64,000 bases of DNA, from positions 20,894,001 to 20,958,000 of the forward strand of contig OX597818.1 in assembly GCA_951406725.2 (NCBI GenBank), in the 5' to 3' direction. Below, one piece after another: positions 3,516-60,342 of this stretch. This stretch comes from Octopus vulgaris. Taxonomy: Eukaryota. How positions within the stretch are numbered: the stretch's first letter is position 1; the number at the start of each line of letters is the position of its first letter. A program made the translations under genes and the position numbers. Under the pieces are notes generated by a model. That model was not told the DNA's origin and searched no databases. It saw only the letters and a list, made by a program, of their open reading frames with translations.

Positions 3516-4127
3516 CCTTTCTACTATAAGCACAAGGCCTGAAATTTGGTGTTGGAGGATAGTCGGTTATATTGACCCAGGCATTCAACTGGTATTTAAT
3601 TTATCGACCCCGAAAGGATGAAAAGCAAACTCGGCCTCGGCGGAATTTGAACGCAGAACGTAACGGCAGACGAAATACTGCGAAGCATTTCGCCCGGCGT
3701 ACTAACGATTCTTAATTCTTTACTGTCCACAAGGGGATACACACAGAGGGAACAAACAAGGACAGACAAACGGATTAAGTCGATTTTATCGACCCCAGTG
3801 CGTAACTGGTACTTATTTAATCGACCCCGAAAGGATGAAAGGCAAAGTCGACCTCGGCGGAATTTGAACTCAGAACGTAGCGGCAGACGAAATACCTATT
3901 TCTTTACTATCCACAAGGGGCTAAACACAGAGAGGACAAACAAGGACAGACAAACGGATTAAGTCGATTATGTCAACCCCAGTGCGTTACTGGTACTTAA
4001 TTTATCGACCCCGAAAGGATGAAAGGCAAAGTCGACCTCGGCGAAATTTGAACTCAGAACGTAACGGCAGACGAAATACGGCTACGCATTTCGCCCGGCG
4101 TGCTAACGTTTCTGCCAGCTCGCCGCC
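3516..4127 (-). mobile_element. Chain of three tRNA-derived SINE units (core gcctttcatcctttcggggtcgataaattaagtaccag)
   Basis: B-box gagttcaaattcc and one head with repeated core+tail units. The core resembles the Meta/MESC SINE domain (from recall). Confidence 0.85.
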
Positions 4128-7474: not shown

Positions 7475-8177
7475 ATTCTTTTCTACTCTAGGCACAAGGC
7501 CCGAAATTTTGGGGGAGGGAGCCAGTCGATTAGATCGATCCAAGTACGCAGCTGGTACTTAATTTATCGACTCCGAAAGGATGACAGGTAAAGTCGACCT
7601 CAGCGGAATTTGAATTCAGAATGTAAAGACAGACGCGCTAACGTTTCTTATTTCTTTATTGCCTACAAGGGGCTAAACATAGAGGGGACAAACAAGGACA
7701 GACAAAGGAATTAAGTCGATTACATCGACGCCAGTGCGTAACTGGTACTTAATTTATCGACCCCGAAAGGATGAAAGGCAAAGTCAACCTCGGCGAAATT
7801 TGAACTCAGAACGTAACGGCAGACGAAATACCTATTTCTTTACTACCCACAAGGGGCTAAACACAGAGGGGACAAACAAGGACAGACAAAGGGATTAAGT
7901 CGATTATATCGACCTCAGTGCGTAACTGGTACTTATTTAATCGACCCCGAAAGGATGAAAGGCAAAGTCGACCTCGGCAGAATTTGAACTCAGAACTTAA
8001 TGGCGGACGAAATACGGCTTCGCATTTCGCCCAGAGTGCTAACGTTTCTGCCAGCTCGCCGCCTTCGGATATAGATATTCTTTTCTACTCTAGGCACAAT
8101 GCCCGAAATTTGGAGGGAGGGGTCCAGTCGATTAGATAGACCCCGGCGTGCTAACGTTTCTGCCAACTTGCCGCCTT
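7475..8177 (-). mobile_element. Chain of SINE units, same family; flanking cgaatatagatat-like motif occurs three times
   Basis: Three cores plus a partial duplicate. Confidence 0.85.
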
Positions 8178-21481: not shown

Positions 21482-22764
21482 CAGGTTATCCCATAAGTTC
21501 TGCCCGAATTTTGAATAAAGAAAACAAGCGATCAAATGTTATATTTAAATGAAATTTAATCATCAATGTGCTTTCTCTGATTATCTATGTCTTCCTTCCA
21601 TCTATTTACAAGCTTTTTAATCCCATCAATGTAAAACTCTTTTGGTTTCAAAGCCAAGAACTCTGAAATGTCAGTTTTGACCTCCTCCTGGCTTGCAAAA
21701 GTTATGCCCCACAAATGATTCTGTAAACTATGAAACAGATGGTAGTCTGAAGGAGCAAAGTCGGGAGAATAAGGTGGATGAGGAATTTTTTCCCAACCAA
21801 GCTCTTCGATCTTCTGTGATATGATCTTTGCAGTGTGGAGTCGTGTATTGTCCTGATGAAACATCACTCCTTTTCGATTCACTAAAGCAGGTCTTTTTTT
21901 CTTCAAAGCTTGGTTCTAACACTCTAATTGCTGAGAGTAGACTTGAACATTGATTGTTGCATTAGGTGGTAACAATTCAAAGTGAATTACTCCTTTGCAA
22001 TCCCACCAGATAGAGAGAAGAACCTTTCTCCCATGAAGTTCCCTTCTCGGTTGTGGTTGAGCCTTTTCCCTTTTACCAAGCCACTGTTTACGATGTTTAA
22101 CATTTTGATAGATGATCCATTTTACGTCACCAATCACAAGTCTATCCAAAAAGGGTGAAATGAGTTTGGGAGAATGGAGAGAGAAGATGTCAACTCGAGA
22201 TTTGCGGTTGCTTTTGGACCATTCATGAGGTACCCATTTTCCAAGTTTAGGAACCTTTCCAAGTTGTTGAAGATGACAATGAACAGTTGTATGGTTTGAA
22301 CTTAGCTTTGTTGCCAATTCTTCAACTGATAATGCAGGATTTTCTTCAAGTAATGCCTCATGGAGCTTATCATCAAACTCAACTGGATGTCCTATTTGAT
22401 CTTCATCTTCAAGGCTGAAATCTCCACTTCTGAATTTTGCAAACCATCTTCTGCAAGTTCTTTCATTCAAGCATTCTTTCCCATAAATTGAGTGTATGTT
22501 TCAAGTTGCTTCGGCTGCAGAGTTTCCTTTTTTGTACGCATAAAGCATTATGTCCCTCAAATGCTCTTTGGATACTTCCATGTTAGAAAGGGTTTTAATC
22601 AAAGAAATTTTAATTCTATTATTCTGTAAAATAATATTTAATTAGTTTAAATGTACACAAATGCATAAAAATAATTTTTAATTCCATTAGACATTCTAAA
22701 ATACTATTAAATTTCATTCAATTTTAAAAAGGGTAAAATTGAACAGAACTTATGGGATGACCTG
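21482..22764 (-). mobile_element. Near full-length mariner (DD34D) DNA transposon, decayed
   Basis: ~30-bp imperfect TIRs (caggttatcccataagttctg / cagaacttatgggatgacctg), 1283 bp, next to a TA run on the left. Confidence 0.92.
21556..22581 (-). pseudogene. Mariner transposase with stops/frameshifts
   Basis: MEVSKEHLRDIMLY..., RRWFAKFRSG, WVPHE, GDVKW, HQDN, YSPDFAPSDYHLF; split over several ORFs. Confidence 0.9.
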
Positions 22765-23322
22765 TGGGGGAGGTAACAACTTGGGACCAATTCGAATTCA
22801 GCACCAGTTCAAAGAAATCGTCTGCACTTTGCGGCCAACGGAAGGCCTCCCGGTCAATCTCAGGGAAATTGAAGTCCCCCGCAACATACACATATGTGGC
22901 TGTTTTCATGGCAGCCGCCCTGAGGATATCAAAAAGCTGTGCGTCTTGGCGATAATTTGGAGGACGGTAAACGACTCCGAGCAGAAGTGTTGACATGGTC
23001 ATGTGTACATTGCAGAAAAATACCTCCTGCTGAGATTGGTTCAAATCATCACAGGGGATTGCCGATAGACTTGATCGAACATAAATCATCACACCCCCTC
23101 CACGGCGATTAATGCGGTCTTTGCGGAACAGGTTGTAGCCGGCTATGCTGAAAACTCCATCACAGAGTGCAGAGTGTGCCCACGTTTCCGTGACTGTGAT
23201 GAAATCTGGGTTGATACTTTTGACGTAGGAGACAAAAAGATGCACCGTGTTACATAAACTACAGGCATTCAAGGACAGCAGTCTATATCTGGATTTCAGA
23301 TGATGATATACAGGGGATGGCT
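22765..23322 (-). pseudogene. Inverted AP-endonuclease domain of LINE ORF2
   Basis: LLSLNACSL, ITVTETW, RKDR..RRGGGVMIYV, VVYRPP, AGDFNFPEI, QVVTSPT motifs. Confidence 0.88.
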
Positions 23323-23324
23323 GA

Positions 23325-25079
23325 TTTGAACAACGCATTGCAGCTAACCCTGACAGCAAAGGGTTCTGGAAATATGTGCACTCAAAGCAGAGACCCCACT
23401 TTCCTGTTGGTCCCCTTCGCAATCCCCACACAGGACAGATTACTGGCAATCCCGAAGAATGTGCAGAAATCATTGCTGGATGCTATGCCGGCATCTTTAC
23501 TGTCGAAGACCAAAATGTTCCATCATCATCACCACTGACATCGGACTCTATATCTTCTATGCAATTTACACCAGCAATGCTGCAACGCCACCTAAAGAAT
23601 AAATGCAATTATGCCTCTCCTGGTCTCAATGGTGTTACATACCTACTTCTCAAACGCAGTGGGTACTTTCTTCTAAGCCAACTTTCTCTATTCTTCCAAT
23701 TCTGTCTTGACAATGGTGTTACTCCAGAACAGTGGAAAACTGCCAGTGTCATCCCTCTGTTCAAAAAAGGCGACCGCACATCGCCTGTCAACTATCGCCC
23801 CGTCAGTCTTACCAGCTGCATCGCCAAACTGATGGAATCCTGTATCAGAGAAACCCTCTGGAACTTCTGGAAGTCTCACAGCCTCATCCAGCCGTCACAA
23901 TTCGGATTTATTCCTAACTCCAGCTGCTGTAATCAACTCATCGAGTTTCTTGAGGATGTTACCCAAATCACTGATCGCGGATCCTGGGTGGATGTTGTTT
24001 ACCTGGACTTTGCTAAGGCTTTTAACTCTGTGCCACACAAAAGACTTATGGTGAAGCTTTCTGCGTTGGGTGTAAGAGACGAACTCTATAACTGGTTAAA
24101 GTCCTTTATTTTCGGCCGAAAAGAGGTTGTCACAGTTCTAGGACAGCACTCTTCGCCCTATGAGATGACATCTGGTGTGCCGCAGGGATCTGTTCTTGGC
24201 CCCCTTTTATTTGTTGCATATGTTAATGACATAGATGCCAACTTAAAGAATGCCACAGTGCTGAAATATGCAGATGACATCAAGCTGTACCTCGAAATAA
24301 AGAAGTCAAATCCTATACACTATGGATCTCTATTGCAAGTAGACCTGGACACAATGCAGCAGTGGATCATGGACTGGCAACTCAAGCTGGCTGTGGACAA
24401 ATGTACCACCATGCATTTTGGGAGGAGAAACCCAGCGTCCACCTACTCCCTCCACAACACTAGTCTCAAAAAGTCTTCAAGTGAACGTGACCTGGGTGTT
24501 ATTGTCGACAGTGATTTGCGTTGGACAAAACACATCGCCAAAATTGTCAAGAAGGCTGAGGGTGTCTTGGCATCACTCACCAAATCCTTTGTGAGCCGCT
24601 CTCCGGCTATCTATCTGCAGCTTTATATAGCTATGGTAAGACCTCACCTGGAATTTGCATCACCGGTCTGGAACCCCTATCTTGCCCAGGACATCAATCG
24701 TCTGGAAGCTGTTCAGCGACGTGCAACCAAAAGAATACCCTCCATCAGGCATTTGCCATATCCTGAACGCCTTACTTCCCTGGGCATGGACACATTGAAA
24801 CTCCGACGTCTGGCAGCTGACCTGGCAGACACCCACAAAATTATCAACCATCGCACAAACAATAACACTGAGCACCTCTTCAAACTCCACCCATCTAACA
24901 CCCGTGGACATATTTACAAAGTAAGAAAACAGCACAGCTCCCATGACTTCAGGAAACATTTTTTCACGCTGAGAGTTACTGAAGCGTGGAACAAACTGCC
25001 GGCATCGGTTGTTAGTTGTCGGAGCACTGCATCCTTCAAGACTTCCATGCTTCCTGAGATTCGCCAACACTACACTTGA
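23325..25079 (+). CDS. LINE ORF2 reverse transcriptase + C-terminal domain (N-terminally truncated, open to stop)
   Basis: FWKYVHSK, NYRPVSLTS, YLDFAKAF, SGVPQGSVLGPLLF, YADD, TRGH, FFTLRV..WNKLP (CR1-type C-terminus). Confidence 0.9.
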   Translation, partial: FEQRIAANPDSKGFWKYVHSKQRPHFPVGPLRNPHTGQITGNPEECAEIIAGCYAGIFTVEDQNVPSSSPLTSDSISSMQFTPAMLQRHLKNKCNYASPGLNGVTYLLLKRSGYFLLSQLSLFFQFCLDNGVTPEQWKTASVIPLFKKGDRTSPVNYRPVSLTSCIAKLMESCIRETLWNFWKSHSLIQPSQFGFIPNSSCCNQLIEFLEDVTQITDRGSWVDVVYLDFAKAFNSVPHKRLMVKLSALGVRDELYNWLKSFIFGRKEVVTVLGQHSSPYEMTSGVPQGSVLGPLLFVAYVNDIDANLKNATVLKYADDIKLYLEIKKSNPIHYGSLLQVDLDTMQQWIMDWQLKLAVDKCTTMHFGRRNPASTYSLHNTSLKKSSSERDLGVIVDSDLRWTKHIAKIVKKAEGVLASLTKSFVSRSPAIYLQLYIAMVRPHLEFASPVWNPYLAQDINRLEAVQRRATKRIPSIRHLPYPERLTSLGMDTLKLRRLAADLADTHKIINHRTNNNTEHLFKLHPSNTRGHIYKVRKQHSSHDFRKHFFTLRVTEAWNKLPASVVSCRSTASFKTSMLPEIRQHYT

Positions 25080-34247: not shown

Positions 34248-34612
34248 TGATATGATATATATACTCATCATGATGATGATGATATATATACTCCCTCCTT
34301 GCTATTAAAGGCACAAGCACTTTCACACACACATGCACACACAATGATTATTATCATAATTATGATAATGATGATGATGTTTACAATGATAATTATTATC
34401 CTTAATATGATGATGAGTAACTTATACTTTTTCTCTCACTCTTTCTCTTTCTCCCTCTCCCTCTCTCTCCCTCCCCTCCTCCTACTTCTGCCTCCATAAC
34501 CTCTACTACTACTACTGCTAATACTACTATTACCAACACTGCTGCCATCACCTTCACGACAACCACCACCAACTACTACCACTTCCACCACCATCACCAT
34601 CACATATGCAAG

Positions 34613-34868
34613 CTTTGATAAGGACCTGCCAAACAAGCTCCGTCTTGAGGAGAAGATCAAACTACACCACCTGGAGCAACTGATGCAACACTTCCAGTGC
34701 CATAAACCAGATGATATAATATTGCACAAGGACTGTGGTTACTTCACATCTTCCCAGGTGGAGAAACGTAAGCCAGGATGTATGAATCAGCAGGAATTCA
34801 ATGAAGCAATCGCCAAAGTTTTAGGAACTGAAGAATACCGAGACTACATTGAGAAACTATTTACTAAG
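34613..34868 (+). CDS. WDR49: WDR49-like exon (N-terminal EF-hand region); acceptor 34613 or 34623
   Basis: FDKDLPNKLRLEEKIKLHHLEQLMQHF...EYRDYIEKLFTK|gtatgc, phase-0 donor. Confidence 0.8.
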
Positions 34869-35034
34869 GTATGCTTGCTTATTTCCCCTTGTATTATTTT
34901 TACTCTATGTTTTTGTTCATTTTTTTCCCTTATCTTTTTGGGGATATTAACCCTTTAGCATTCAGATTATTATTCTGTCAAATCTAATGTATATTGATTC
35001 ACATTTTCCATCCTTATTGTGGTTTTTGTTTATG

Positions 35035-53207: not shown

Positions 53208-54664
53208 GTGTGTGTGCGTGTGTGTGTGTGTGTGATTTTTCAGCATGTCTGGACTGTTTAATTCAGACACTTTTTCTCTTCATCTTTTCTCTCTTCTCAT
53301 CTATCCTTTCTGTAGAAGAGTATAGGCTCAAAATGTTAAACATTTCTTCCAATTTTCCTGAGTATCTCATTGACTAAATTAGTTACACTGGATACTTATA
53401 TTAAGTTACAGCTTTCAGAACACTAACTAGTTGAGTAGCTAATCAAATATGCAAATTAGTTAATGCTATATTAAAATCTCAAGTACATAATCACAAAAAT
53501 AAACCATGTTTGAATAGAATTGTGTTTTATCTGTCAATAGCAACATTTCGTTTCAATAAAATAGTCAATGCCTTGCTAATCACATTTCACAGAAAATTTC
53601 AGTAATGCCAGTAAAAAGCCTGGTTTTGTAGTCAAAATTGTTTAAATAGTTCTCTGAATTTTTTCTTTTCTTTAATTCAACTAAATTTTGGCTGCTTTCT
53701 TTGTGTTTTAGCTGCTAAAACACAAAGAATTTATAAGCAAAATATGCCAGATGGTTCAAACGAATGTTTCTTTATTAAATGAAACTATTTTCGAAAGCTG
53801 CACATGTAACAATGAATACAAAGATCAGGGCTATACCACATGTAAATAGCAGGCAGATCTATTGAATGTAGCACTCAAGAATATGTCATTCTGTATAGAA
53901 GTATTTTTCTATTCAGTGACAGATGATCAGTGTGAATTCTCAATACAGAAAATTAAGCGTTTTTCAAGACAAAAAAAAAACTGATATTTTTTCAAATACT
54001 TTGAAACTTCAGTAAAATATTAAGGAATACATGACCAATGAATATGTGAAAAGGGTGAACCGAACAACTTTATTTAATTTTTTATCTTTCTTTTTGTATC
54101 TCTTACTTGTTTCAGTCTTCAGGCTGTGGCCATACTAGGGCACTGCCTAGAAGAATTTTTAGTTGAATGAATTGACCCTAGAACTTTTTTTTTAAGCCTG
54201 GTACTTATTCTATCGATCTCATTTGCCAAACCACTAAGCTACGGAGTGATGGGGGACACATAGATACAAAGATCTGCACACACACACACACACACATTCG
54301 ATTGGCTTCTTTCAGCTTCCGTCTACCAAATCCACTCACAAGGCTTGGTCAGCAGAGACTATAGTCGAAGAACACTTGCTTGAGGCAAACTTCTTACCAC
54401 ACACCCAGCCCTGAACCTTTTATTTAATCACAACAAATCCCATTTTTAATTTTTTTTTTAAGTATGTGATTTCCACAATGTGCTTAATTTTGCCTGAAGC
54501 AAATTTCAACAGAACCTTTTGATATACGGAGATGTACTTGCATAGCAAGTGATTTGATCTGAGATCGTGTGCTGGAACGAAAACAATTGCAGCGTGGAAG
54601 GTGTTTGTAAGCCATTTAAGAAACATACAAAAGCCGTTTGATTCACTTCAACATTTAAGTTTAA

Positions 54665-54715
54665 TTTGTCAAACTATTTTCGTCACTTTAAGACCGTGAC
54701 CTGTTCACTGACAAA
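54665..54715 (-). ncRNA. Hammerhead-like motif with G3-C8 swapped core
   Basis: Minus: uuuguca-GUGAACA-g-gucac..gugac-GAAA-auag-UU-ugacaaa; 7-bp stem I, 5-bp stem II. Confidence 0.55.
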
Positions 54716-55686
54716 AATCCATGCTGCATCTCGGAGATGCAATAATATTTTGCTATATTGTTATATTTCGGAATGGTCATTTTTTTTTTTTTTTTTATTT
54801 CTTGTCAATGAACTATAAACATTCATAAACATAATATTTTGTTTATATATTATTGAAACAGAAGGTTACTATTGTCAGATGTAATAATTATATTTAAACA
54901 TGGGAAAATATATATCAGTTTATTAAGGAATGTAACCCATCTAGGAATTTGAAAACTGATTATGTCTAATTTAGATGTGCTATGCTTACTATTTCACTCC
55001 TTGTAAGTTTTACATCTAGCAATCTCTGATAATTTTTCATGATATCTTATCACATTTTTGATATCAACTTACCACATTCTCCACATAATAATTAAACTGC
55101 CAGTATTAGGCATGAAAAGAGAAATTTATGAAATATTCTGAATTGAAGTTTCAATATGCTAGACTTCTTCAACATTTCCAAAAAAACAGGATGTATTTAA
55201 TTCCTCAGTTTTTACATAAGGCCACAGATTTGAAGGAGAGGTTTATAGGCAGCTGAAACATCTTCAGTATACAGCTGTTATTTCTTTCTTTTATCATAAA
55301 TTAGGTACAAAGCTTGCTTTCCAACCACATGGTCTAGGATTCAGTCTTGCAGCATAGCATTTATGCAAGGATTTTCTACTATGACCCCAGGCTGCCCAAA
55401 GTGGATTTGTTAGACAGAAGCTGAAAGAAGCCTGACATGTGTAGGTCTATGTATGTATGTTGTTATTTAGTTTTATTTCAGGATTTCAGGTCAATAGAGA
55501 AACAACCGGTTTCTAACCTAGACCCAAGGCTCCAGTACACTCTGTTAAGTGGTTGGAGTTAAGAAGGGCATGAAGCTATAGAAACCAAGCCAAAACAGAC
55601 AACTGGAACCTGATGCAGCTCTCCAGCTTACCAGCTTCAGTCAAACCATTTAACCCATGCCTGCATGGAAAACAGATGTTAAATGG

Positions 55687-55717
<31 letters not shown>

Positions 55718-56136
55718 GGTAGTTGTGGTGGTGGTGGTGGTAGGTGGTGGAGGTGGGGAGTGATGTGTGTGTGTGTATCCTTATCTTGACATCATGTAAT
55801 GGCTGTAAATGAGCATCATATAAATGATTGTTGTTTGTTTCCAGTCTTTCATGGAAAACTTGTTTGGCCATTGGGAAATATTAACTTGCTTGGAAACAGG
55901 ATGCTTTTAGCAGTGGAATCCATGACAATATAATCATTCTGACCAGGTTTTCAGTTTTATCTGCCTTTCACACTTGTCACAGAGGTCCTGAAAATGTGAA
56001 AACAGATATAACTGAAATGAAATTTTATTCCAGAACATAGAGAAAGAAAACTAAATAATGCTCAACATCATATAGACCAGTGTTACTGCATTATAATCCT
56101 ACATAATACTTGTGGAGATGAAGATGGTGAACATAG

Positions 56137-56322
56137 GCATAGCAGTGGCTGTGTGGTAAGTAGTTTGCTCACCAACCACATGGTTTCGGGTTCAGTCCCA
56201 CTGTGTGGCACCTTGGGCAAGTGTCTTCTACTATAGCCTCAGGCCAACCAAAGCCTTGTGAGTGGATTTGCTTGACAGAAACTGAAAGAAGCCCATCGTA
56301 TATATGTATACATATATATATA

Positions 56323-56371
<49 letters not shown>

Positions 56372-56579
56372 TTGTGTGTCTGTGTTTGTCTCCCCAACAT
56401 TGCTTGACAACCGATGCTGGTGTGTTTACGTCCCCATAACTTAGCGGTTTGGCAAAAGAGACTGATAAAATAAGTACTAGGCTTACAAAGAATAAGTCCT
56501 GGAGTCGATTTGCTTGACTAAAGGCGGTGCTCCAGCATGGCTAGTCAAAATGACTGAAACAAGTAAAAGAGTAAAAGAG
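56137..56579 (+). mobile_element. SINE, third family
   Basis: Same head, core and tail. Confidence 0.85.
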
Positions 56580-57788: not shown

Positions 57789-58577
57789 CAGGGTTGGATA
57801 AAATCATGGAAACTAGCATCATAGCATCATAACTTTGAAATATCTATAAAACCATTAAAAGCTTGTTTAGTTTTATGTTTTTTGATTTATTATTAGTGTT
57901 GCTTAATATGTTTTGCTAAAATTGCTATTTCTTTTCAGATATCATCAGAAAAAGGTAATTAAAATTCATTAAAATGACAAATCTATCGAACTTTCAAAGA
58001 GGTCAAATTGTTGGTGCTCGTATAGCAGGCACTAGCATAACGAAAACAGCTGAAATGTTTGGTGTATCAAGAAGTACTGTCTCGAAAGTAATGACAGCCT
58101 TTGAGAAAGTGGGAAAAACCTCCTTGTCAAAACAAAACTCCAGAAGAAAACCAAAACTTTCAGATAGGGACCTTTGGACTCTTACGCGAATTGTTAGTAA
58201 GGATCACAAAAGTACAGCTCCCAAAATTACTGCAGAGCTTAATGACCACCTCGAGAACCCAGTTTTCACAGTAACTGTTCACCAGGAGCTGCACAAAGCT
58301 AGATTTCACAGAAGGGCTGCAATCAGAAAACCACTACTTTCAAAAACAAACATTGCAAAGAGTTTAGAGTTGAATAAAAATCTACAGAATTGGTCTCTAG
58401 AGCAGTGGAAGAATGTTATTTTCTCGGAGTGTCATCCTTTACCCTATTTCCAATCACCGGCCGAGTATACATGTGGAAACAGCCAAATGAAGCATTTGAC
58501 CCAGACTGCCTTCTTCCAACTATTAAACATGGAGGAGGATCTGTGATGATCTGGGGTGGGGGCTATATCTTGGAAAT
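57789..58577 (+). mobile_element. Tc1-family transposon, 5' half (frameshifted transposase from 57974)
   Basis: ta|cagggttggataaaat left end; LSNFQRGQIVGARIAG HTH, WKNVIFS, KHGGGSVMIWG. Confidence 0.88.
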
Positions 58578-58579
58578 TC

Positions 58580-60342
58580 ACCAAGAAAATGGTTGTTGAA
58601 GGGGGCTACACACCAAAGTAAGTATACAATGTTGATGAAACTGCACTTTTCTGGAAGTGCATGCCTGCTAGAACTTTTATTTCTCAAGAAGAAAAATCAA
58701 CACTTCTAACACTTCTTTTTGGAGGAAATATCAACACTTCTTTTTGGAGGAAATATCTAACACTTCTTTTTGGAGGAAATATCAATGGCGATATGAAATT
58801 AAAGCCCCTATTCGTGTATCATTCAATATGTGAAAAGTTTAATCAACCTCTGATTTGGTGTTCAAATAAGAAGGCACAGATAACCAAACACCTTTTCAAA
58901 GAGTGTTTTACAAATGCCTTTTGTTCTGCCTTAGAAAGAAACAGTGCCAGACATATTTCCAACAAAACGTTGCTTCTTTTAGACAATGCACTGGGCCACC
59001 CATCAAATTTAGATGATCTTACTGATAACATGAGAGTTGAATATATATTCCTAAAAATACAACTTCTTTGCTCCAGCCAATGGATCAAGGTGTGATAGCT
59101 AGTTTCAAAATATATTATCTGAGAAAAACTTTCAAACAACTTATGAAAGCAATTGACAGGGAGGATAAACCTACAATTAGAGATTTCTGGAAGAAATTCA
59201 ACATAACGGATGTTGTGGATAATATAGCTGAATCATAGGATGAAGTGAAACCTTCAACTTTGAATAGTGCTTGGAAAAATATATGACCAGACTGTATTAG
59301 TGACATTACAAGTTTTCCTCAAGTAGAAAGTGTACATAAAATTTGGAAAGATATTGTGACACTTGCAAAAGATGTAGTATTTGAAGAAGTCAAAGCTGAT
59401 GATGTGACTGAGTTGCTAGTGTCCTAGAGAGAAAGTCAATTGAATGAGGGGCTGATGTTGTGAGAAAAAGAACATGCTGAGAATACAGATGATACAATAG
59501 AAGTTCCACCTAAACCACTTAAATTGGTTACAAAATATATTGCTAAAGGTCTTCATGTTTTTGTTGATAATGATCTTAATCTTGAATAAAACATAAAAAT
59601 TACCAGAAGAGTTTACAATAAGTTCAGTTCCTATACCGAGCTGTACAAAGGGATACTGCATCATACAACAAACAACTTTGGAATAGCTCTTTACCCTTCA
59701 AGCTGATGTTTCTTATTTCTTATTTCTCTACTGCCCCCACAAGGGGCTACACACAGAGGGAACAGACAAGAACAGACAAATGGATTAAGTCAATTATATC
59801 AACCCCAGTGCATAGCTGGTACTTATTTAATTGACCCCGAAAAGATGAAAGGCAAAGTCGACCTCGGCGGAATTTGAACTCAGAAGGAGCGGCAGACGAA
59901 ATACCGCTAAGCATTTTGCCTGGCATGCTAATGTTTCTACAAGCTCACCGCCATCACCCCTCGAGCTGATGTTGGTAATAATGAAGTATAAGATAGTATA
60001 TATTGTCCTTCATCCTCCTAGTAATGCTCATTCCACCACCCCTTACACTGTTGTCAATATCTTTTGTGGTAAGAATGTACCCTTGCAATATTACAATTCT
60101 TATTAATTCTCTAACATATTTTTCTTAAAATGCATTTCTGTTTTTATGTATCAATATTGTTATTTTCATGTATGAAGGTAATTTTCTGTTGTTTTCTTGT
60201 ACATTTTTTAATGAAAGAGTCTGTAGGAATGCAATCTTGATAACATGAAAATCAGTAGGAAATTCAATTGTGCATTACGGGATTTTGGGTTACAGTTAGA
60301 TTTTCAGGAATCCATTGCTTCTGTAAAGCAAGAGATTCTTGT
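58580..60342 (+). mobile_element. pogo/Tigger-like transposon 3' part, decayed
   Basis: EGGYTP..VYNVDETALFWKCMPARTFISQEEK, LLLLDNA.GHP, LLQPMDQGVIASFK..Y; right boundary approximate. Confidence 0.8.

What the first reader, a model, noticed from the sequence alone, without database searches (positions are those of the whole stretch)
54665..54715. Hammerhead fold with natural G3-C8 compensatory core swap
Seen on the minus strand: perfect 7-bp stem I, 5-bp stem II and GAAA, but the 5' core is GUGAACA instead of CUGANGA. Known: C3 and G8 form a tertiary Watson-Crick pair, and the double swap can retain activity; natural examples are rare and missed by standard searches. Stem III is imperfect in this copy. 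Inference: a repeat family with a selected non-canonical ribozyme.
Basis: partly seen in the sequence, partly recalled or inferred. Interest (0 to 1): 0.7.

Follow-up and report, generated by a model that had tools for sequence, protein, structure and literature searches.

The report
Swapped-core hammerhead in Penelope-like retroelement
A jumping gene with over 5,000 copies in this genome carries the fold of a self-cutting "hammerhead" RNA in which one key base pair is flipped (G3-C8 instead of C3-G8), a swap we found described only from lab-made mutants; it likely cuts weakly at best.

Summary
The motif lies in a 208-bp solo terminal repeat (pLTR plus tail) of a recently active Penelope-like retroelement (RT + GIY-YIG). 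G3-C8 is the family state: 5112 of 5566 genome matches. The family's stem III is the palindrome AAUAUU. Homology is shown by relatives. The sister family (54% protein identity) has C3-G8 at the same place, and six metagenomic relatives have C3-G8 (4) or U3-A8 (2). Positions 3 and 8 pair in 9 of 9 aligned motifs, using three pair types. The tree makes G3-C8 derived. Catalysis is not shown, and there are signs against efficient cutting: 1 of 76 copies starts at the cut site, a G3-U17 wobble is predicted to cover it, about 2% of copies are G3·G8, and the sister's young copies carry A9C. The window copy is decayed. Searches found natural U3-A8 but no natural G3-C8; one key paper was not held. The scan earlier noted an unresolved G3:C8 look-alike behind a PLE in another genome (e1-7353390). 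Verdict: new variant of a known kind.

The parts
54525..54732 (-). Solo pLTR + tail copy of Penelope-like family A (5' end G+AGATGCAGC, 3' end CATCTCCG-TA)
   Evidence: Family boundaries; coordinates; 6 differences from the commonest base in 29 close copies, 5 of them C>T/G>A changes at CpG-type sites
54709..54715 (-). Stem I 5' strand UUUGUCA
   Evidence: Sequence
54701..54708 (-). 5' core G3 U4 G5 A6 A7 C8 A9 plus extra G between 9 and 10.1
   Evidence: the extra nucleotide is a described PLE-hammerhead trait (PMC4209133)
54682..54700 (-). Stem II GUCAC/GUGAC with 9-nt loop (family GUCGC/GCGAC; both CpGs changed in this copy)
54672..54681 (-). G12 A13 A14 A15.1, stem III (AAUAGU here, palindromic AAUAUU in the family), N17 = U at 54672 (predicted cut after it)
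54665..54671 (-). Stem I 3' strand UGACAAA
54525..54615 (-). Start of the element's ORF (ATG at 54615; MAYKHLPRCNC...), including the first 3' end class near 54584 and the ~56-nt tail to 54527
   Evidence: In full copies L152, L153, L164 this frame runs on into the RT ORF; two 3' end classes
54725..54741 (.). 8-bp fold-back of the element's 5' end (TGCATCTC-C-GAGATGCA), likely a stub of the head-to-head inverted arm seen at many loci
   Evidence: self-inverted hit; head-to-head pairs
54755..54783 (-). 29-nt remnant of the pLTR end / ORF start of sister family B, just upstream
   Evidence: 28 of 29 identical, E 5e-8

Best explanation
This is the type I hammerhead of the pseudo-LTR of a Penelope-like retroelement, in which the tertiary 3-8 pair has been flipped from C-G to G-C, and it likely still cuts only slowly, as a dimer or with protein help. 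Shown: the motif sits in the pLTR, 92 nt upstream of the ORF start and about 1 kb downstream of the previous ORF stop, at the same place and with the same architecture as C3-G8 and U3-A8 hammerheads of related elements. Inferred: transcription starts at the A at 54731 and the RNA is capped. A tandem transcript then holds two motifs that can pair through the AAUAUU palindrome to form stem III. Reverse transcription starts inside the RNA at two fixed sites early in the ORF and, from the upstream pLTR, runs through the uncut hammerhead to the cap; this gives solo copies like this one and head-to-head pairs in (TA)n. Inferred: the swap keeps the active-site geometry but lowers the rate, which suits an element whose 5' UTR and RT template would be destroyed by fast cutting. 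The window copy itself is decayed and probably inactive.
For: ORF with YVDD, C-xxx-C-xx-C linker and GIY-YIG (PF01541, E 2.2e-5); 48 of 50 ORF loci hold a pLTR piece; pLTR-tail-ORF junction. Two 3' end classes: 39 of 101 pieces at ref 154-162 and 56 of 101 at 209-225. Sister family B (P0001, 54%) has CUGAUG(C/A)G GUCAC..GUGAC GAAA at the same place; only 57 matches have non-C at position 3, against 4633 matches to a looser family pattern. An old B copy (L372) has stem I GUCA/UGAC and CUGAAGA, differing from A's core only at 3 and 8. Metagenome relatives: C3-G8 in L259, L261, L264, L268; U3-A8 in L258, L260 (6 of 20 loci scanned). Pair 3-8: CG 5, GC 2, UA 2, unpaired 0; whole-structure covariation 0.71 against 0.21 shuffled, 0/500; slid controls 0.05-0.20. 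Tree: A+B sisters 100/99, flanked by C3-G8 and U3-A8 rows. G at -1 in 39 of 58 solo copies and 0 of 38 extended copies. Both stems form with P>0.5 in 65 of 88 copies. The engineered C3G/G8C double mutant of a PLE hammerhead partly restores cleavage, needs protein, and insertion uses uncut RNA (PMC11167929); PLE min-HHRs are weak dimers (PMC4209133).
Against: No cleavage data. 1 of 76 copies anchored downstream of the cut start within 3 nt of it, and 45 of 76 reach the 5' end. G3 is predicted to pair with U17 over the cut site (P 0.67-0.89), like the C3-G17 trap (PMC3884650). About 2% of copies are G3·G8 (42 of the first 100 listed of 305 non-C8), on several backgrounds, with both arms G8 at 5 of 15 two-arm loci, so unpaired templates were likely copied. 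Family B's ORF-linked copies are all A9C (53 of 53), so core damage is tolerated in this clade. The AAUAUU duplex is very weak (-0.2 kcal/mol). The 9-row alignment holds only 8 families, with family A counted twice; L259 and L260 are partly out of register. 14 of 20 related loci gave no motif at a pLTR position (many lack flank).
Confidence: 0.6

Rival explanations
1. It is a hammerhead descendant that no longer cuts; the fold is kept as a structural element (protein binding, RNA dimer contact, or 5' UTR control), and the 3-8 pair is kept for folding or is a frozen accident.
For: Templates are uncut; G3-U17 trap predicted; G3·G8 minority; A9C in young B copies and in L258; HHR mutants do not affect PAc insertion in vitro, and many Naiads lack canonical HHRs (PMC11167929, PMC8557442).
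Against: U4, G5, A6, G12-A14, C11.1 and the extra G are invariant in 9 of 9 aligned motifs while stems and loops turn over. The only two core changes in A are complementary, at exactly the pair known from the active conformation.
Confidence: 0.27
2. It is an efficient, selected ribozyme that routinely processes the element's tandem transcripts into unit-length or circular RNA.
For: Perfect stems I and II and complete remaining core; pair conservation; cut RNAs might simply never be reverse-transcribed, hiding them from the genome record.
Against: No pile-up of 5' ends at the cut; 2-bp AU stem III; the swap is reported as only a partial rescue (PMC8495972, PMC11167929).
Confidence: 0.11
3. It is a chance look-alike amplified by a repeat.
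For: Folding z only -2.0 for this copy; no Rfam hammerhead match.
Against: Same position and architecture in sister and distant PLE families with canonical cores; 0 hits in 100 resampled windows.
Confidence: 0.02

Closest known systems
Type I minimal/dimeric hammerheads in PLE pLTRs (Cervera & de la Pena 2014, PMC4209133; parts 1-2 of 4 read)
   Same: Location in the pLTR, extra nucleotide between 9 and 10.1, G10.1-C11.1, palindromic short helix III, thousands of solo copies, pairs on opposite strands
   Different: G3-C8; that paper reports C3-G8 and one U3-A8 variant (Schistosoma Cercyon). Helix I is longer here (7 bp against 4-5).
PAc (Poseidon of Anolis) pLTR hammerhead and its engineered C3G/G8C double mutant (PMC11167929; passages and first part of main text read)
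   Same: Same swap; internal RT starts giving a tail; uncut RNA as template
   Different: There the swap is a lab mutant; here it is the natural state of over 5,000 copies. The ORF starts 92 nt after G3, not inside stem II; the tail is about 56 nt.
Natural U3-A8 hammerheads (Perreault et al. 2011, PMC3088659; section on core variation read)
   Same: Natural covariation of the 3-8 tertiary pair
   Different: U-A needs two transitions; G-C needs two transversions and inverts purine and pyrimidine
C-terminal EN+ PLEs with a CX2-5CxxC linker and (TA)n preference (Neptune-like; PMC8557442, passages read)
   Same: RT, cysteine linker (CQSNCAVC), C-terminal GIY-YIG, (TA)n targets, inverted 5'-truncated partners, tail
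   Different: Clade not tested against named reference proteins; tail longer than the 30-40 bp described

Membership tests
Hammerhead ribozyme (type I) | Three-way junction with stems I and II and A15.1-U16.1 | tested here: met
   both stems P>0.5 in 65 of 88 family copies, but 0.05/0.09 in the window copy in context
Hammerhead ribozyme (type I) | Literal core C3 U4 G5 A6 N7 G8 A9 | tested here: not met
   G3 and C8 in 5112 of 5566 matches
Hammerhead ribozyme (type I) | Watson-Crick complementarity of positions 3 and 8 | tested here: met
   9 of 9 aligned motifs, three pair types
Hammerhead ribozyme (type I) | U4 G5 A6 A9, G12 A13 A14, NUH cleavage triplet | tested here: met
   U4 71/71, A6 71/71, A9 71/71, N17 U 84/84 among aligned copies
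Hammerhead ribozyme (type I) | Match to an Rfam hammerhead model | tested here: inconclusive
   None among the 150 of 177 rows shown for the window; none in 38 rows for 9 loci that include canonical C3-G8 relatives, so the models miss this architecture
Hammerhead ribozyme (type I) | Site-specific self-cleavage after N17 | not testable with these tools
   Indirect only: no pile-up of copy ends at the site
Hammerhead ribozyme (type I) | Loop I-loop II tertiary contact | not tested
   Not examined
PLE pLTR dimeric hammerhead | Extra nucleotide 9/10.1, G10.1-C11.1, palindromic short stem III | tested here: met
   the palindrome is broken in the window copy only
Penelope-like element, C-terminal EN+ | Single ORF with RT and C-terminal GIY-YIG | tested here: met
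   (in other copies; no ORF body in the window)
Penelope-like element, C-terminal EN+ | pLTR-ORF-pLTR tandem, tail, inverted truncated partners | tested here: met
Penelope-like element, C-terminal EN+ | Clade assignment (Neptune, Nematis, Hydra, Poseidon) by phylogeny with named references | not tested
   The tree held no named references; linker and (TA)n suggest Neptune-like
Non-LTR retrozyme | Non-coding tandem monomers each with a hammerhead, no ORF of their own | tested here: not met
   The unit is the pLTR of a coding element; short tandem arrays occur only occasionally (L009; L166)

The most novel reading that the evidence does not exclude
The first natural G3-C8 hammerhead, active and selected: related Penelope-like families within one genome use three different Watson-Crick pairs at 3-8 (C-G in B, G-C in A, U-A in one full copy of D), and tune self-cleavage down through core changes so that capped, uncut RNA survives as mRNA and RT template. 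Descriptor searches fixed on CUGANGA would then have missed whole classes of PLE ribozymes.
Probability: 0.4. Interest if true: 0.75.

Novelty: new variant of a known kind. Interest (0 to 1): 0.58.

Why it matters
The C3-G8 pair was found by crystallography and supported by engineered swaps; natural covariation in the papers we could read is limited to U3-A8. A G3-C8 family with over 5,000 copies and a C3-G8 sister supplies the missing natural inversion and a ready set of constructs. It also bears on an open question, what hammerheads do for Penelope-like elements: here core changes (G3-C8, A9C, U3-A8) recur in successful lineages and the inserted copies come from uncut RNA, which makes the idea of selected weak cleavage directly testable. 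Practically, searches that demand CUGANGA (as in PMC8557442) cannot see this family.

Tried and rejected
G3·G8 as the ancestral step in family A: not supported, since 0 of the first 100 listed old-background matches (3827 in all) have G8 and 90 are G3-C8; it may be a minor sub-lineage, a remnant or a copying hot spot, unresolved. MITE with terminal inverted repeats (CGGAGATG / CATCTCCG): rejected, because the unit continues into an RT ORF and the 3' TA is element-encoded. An open frame running through the motif: rejected; the ORF starts at 54615. The window's GUCAC/GUGAC as a selected compensatory change: rejected, both are CpG-type transitions also seen singly. Intron ending at AG|ATGCAGC (branch-point-like CTAAC and pyrimidine tract upstream in long copies): left open, no usable read evidence. 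RNA evidence: no RNA holder listed on record; all runs are contigs and cannot show ends. In four runs labelled as four organisms no other letter at 5% or more was listed at positions 3 or 8 (5 rows not shown), a weak hint only. Viral contigs held no relative. Family B 5' ends could not be sampled without bias. Lunse et al. (PLE dimer hammerheads), Przybilski & Hammann 2007 and Martick & Scott 2006 were not held, so their content, supplements included, is unseen. No earlier scan notes for this genome or sequence.

Full report
Observation. The minus strand at 54715-54665 holds a 7-bp stem I, the core G3 U4 G5 A6 A7 C8 A9, one extra G, a 5-bp stem II, GAAA, an imperfect stem III (AAUAGU) and U17. 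The motif is the only hit of a generic scan of the window; a strict descriptor gives 1 real hit and 0 in 100 resampled windows. Rfam shows no hammerhead among the rows displayed and also misses canonical relatives.

Family. The motif lies in a ~208-bp repeat (54732-54525) with 2943 first-look candidates in the genome. A pattern with positions 3, 7, 8 and the extra base free has 5566 matches and 0 for the reversed control. Of these, 5112 are G3-C8, 305 G3 with another base at 8, 16 changed at both, and by subtraction 133 changed at 3 alone; independence predicts about 8.6 doubles. An older background (3827 matches) is also G3-C8 in 90 of the first 100 listed. The family stem III is AAUAUU. The window copy differs from 29 close copies at 6 positions, five C>T/G>A changes and the T>G that breaks the palindrome. 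In its 150-nt context it is predicted to misfold (stem probabilities 0.05 and 0.09), whereas 65 of 88 copies form both stems.

What the repeat is. Among 101 pieces from 70 loci chosen by a downstream anchor, 3' ends fall in two classes about 56 nt apart (39 and 56 pieces). Many loci are head-to-head pairs with one arm of each class, often in (TA)n. Long copies lead upstream through about 1 kb of microsatellite-rich UTR into a GIY-YIG domain and an RT ORF with YVDD and a CQSNCAVC linker; open frames reach 839 and 1025 aa, the latter including a short inverted piece at its start. 48 of 50 ORF loci hold a pLTR piece. In L152, L153 and L164 the pLTR and tail run on into the ORF, which starts at the ATG at window 54615. 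This is the pLTR-ORF-pLTR layout with tail and inverted partners described for Penelope-like elements (PMC8557442; PMC11167929). The closest protein (P0001, 54%) carries a source label from an octopus.

Homology of the motif. P0001 marks a second young family, B, in this genome (56 matches). Its pLTR holds GGACCA CUGAUGC G GUCAC AGGAGU GUGAC GAAA GAACU U UGGCC, and its ORF start aligns by eye with A's. B has 4633 matches to a loose pattern and only 57 with non-C at 3 under a tighter one. Older B copies have A9, often C17, and two have CUGAAGA; L372 has stem I GUCA/UGAC, so its core differs from A's only at 3 and 8. A third family, D, shows UUGAAAAG (U3-A8) in the one copy with a full core (L147). 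Of 76 metagenome loci, 33 were scanned strictly and 20 more loosely: four have C3-G8 and two U3-A8 downstream of the ORF, all with the extra G and a palindromic stem III; 14 of the 20 gave no such motif, many for lack of flank. In a 9-row alignment, 3-8 is CG 5, GC 2, UA 2, never unpaired; 9 of 11 pairs change on both sides; no shuffle reaches the covariation score. Relatedness inflates that control and family A is counted twice. A protein tree of 15 rows joins A and B (100/99) inside a clade with C3-G8 and U3-A8 members and C3-G8 rows outside it (midpoint root), so G3-C8 is most simply derived.

How it likely works. Solo copies have G just before AGATGCAGC in 39 of 58 cases, while 0 of 38 copies that extend upstream do. 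I infer a capped start there; that RTs copy the cap as G is recalled knowledge, and an internal promoter is described for Penelope (PMC2377424, passages). The motif is then in the 5' UTR, and again near the 3' end of a tandem transcript, which would allow the dimer form proposed for PLE hammerheads (PMC4209133). RT starts at two internal sites, as shown for PAc. Of 76 copies anchored downstream of the cut, 45 reach the 5' end and 1 starts within 3 nt of the cut, so templates are uncut. In 4 of 25 head-to-head pairs the arms differ in loop II type, so arms can come from different pLTR copies.

Evidence against efficient cutting. G3 is predicted to pair with U17 (P 0.67-0.89), resembling the C3-G17 trap; a G3-C8 variant was reported as less active with C17 than with G17 (PMC3884650, passages). 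The swap is only a partial rescue (PMC8495972, passage). 42 of the first 100 listed non-C8 copies have G8, about 2% of the family, against 13 G among B's 57 changes at position 3; both arms are G8 at 5 of 15 two-arm loci. All 53 ORF-linked B motifs have C9. The core therefore tolerates damage in successful lineages.

Novelty. Paper searches for C3G/G8C, G3-C8, U3-A8, natural variants and octopus PLE hammerheads returned natural U3-A8 (PMC3088659, section read; PMC4209133) and engineered G3-C8 only. The library lacks most subscription papers, and three relevant papers were not held; the large PLE hammerhead set of Lunse et al. could contain such rows. The scan's note e1-7353390 reports a G3:C8-like motif with an insertion behind a PLE in another genome, unresolved and not checked here.

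Verdict. Real, homologous to known PLE hammerheads, with a derived and apparently undescribed natural inversion of the 3-8 pair; activity untested and probably low; this copy decayed. New variant of a known kind, interest 0.58.

Noticed in passing
L227-L256; G000: Sister PLE family B, about 4600 matches, many intact ORFs up to 1312 aa; its young copies have A9C and U17, while older ones are canonical (A9, often C17). L258 also has C9.
   Followed up: partly
L147:680-715 (-), L143, L024, L205: Third related PLE family (ORF start MTLPRHNRICFNTR) with a U3-A8 core and a 4-nt palindromic stem III; full core seen in one copy only.
   Followed up: partly
G000: G3·G8 copies (about 2% of family A) occur on several subfamily backgrounds; 10 of 15 two-arm loci are discordant. 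Unexplained.
   Followed up: partly
L009, L013, L088, L100 just upstream of AGATGCAGC: Branch-point-like CTAAC, pyrimidine tract and AG directly before the inferred start; could be a 3' splice site or an initiator.
   Followed up: partly
window 54755-54783 (-): 29-nt remnant of family B's pLTR end, 22 nt from the family A copy.
   Followed up: yes
L034, L065, L135, L138, L239: Other canonical CUGANGA+A hammerhead-like motifs with 4-nt palindromic stem III (ACGU), probably further PLE families.
   Followed up: no
window 22724-25079 (+): LINE-type endonuclease and RT frames by their motifs (recalled, no family search).
   Followed up: no
window 21916-22500 (-), 57959-58546 (+), 58622-59095 (+): Frames resembling mariner, Tc1 and pogo-type transposase fragments (recalled).
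   Followed up: no
window 34500-34958 (+): Frame holding a possible host exon (…FDKDLPNKLRLEEKIKL…EKLFTK…), perhaps EF-hand-like; the repeat may lie in an intron.
   Followed up: no
window 3716-4079, 7524-8015, 54130-54400, 56130-56500: SINE-like repeats, some in 184-bp tandem units.
   Followed up: no
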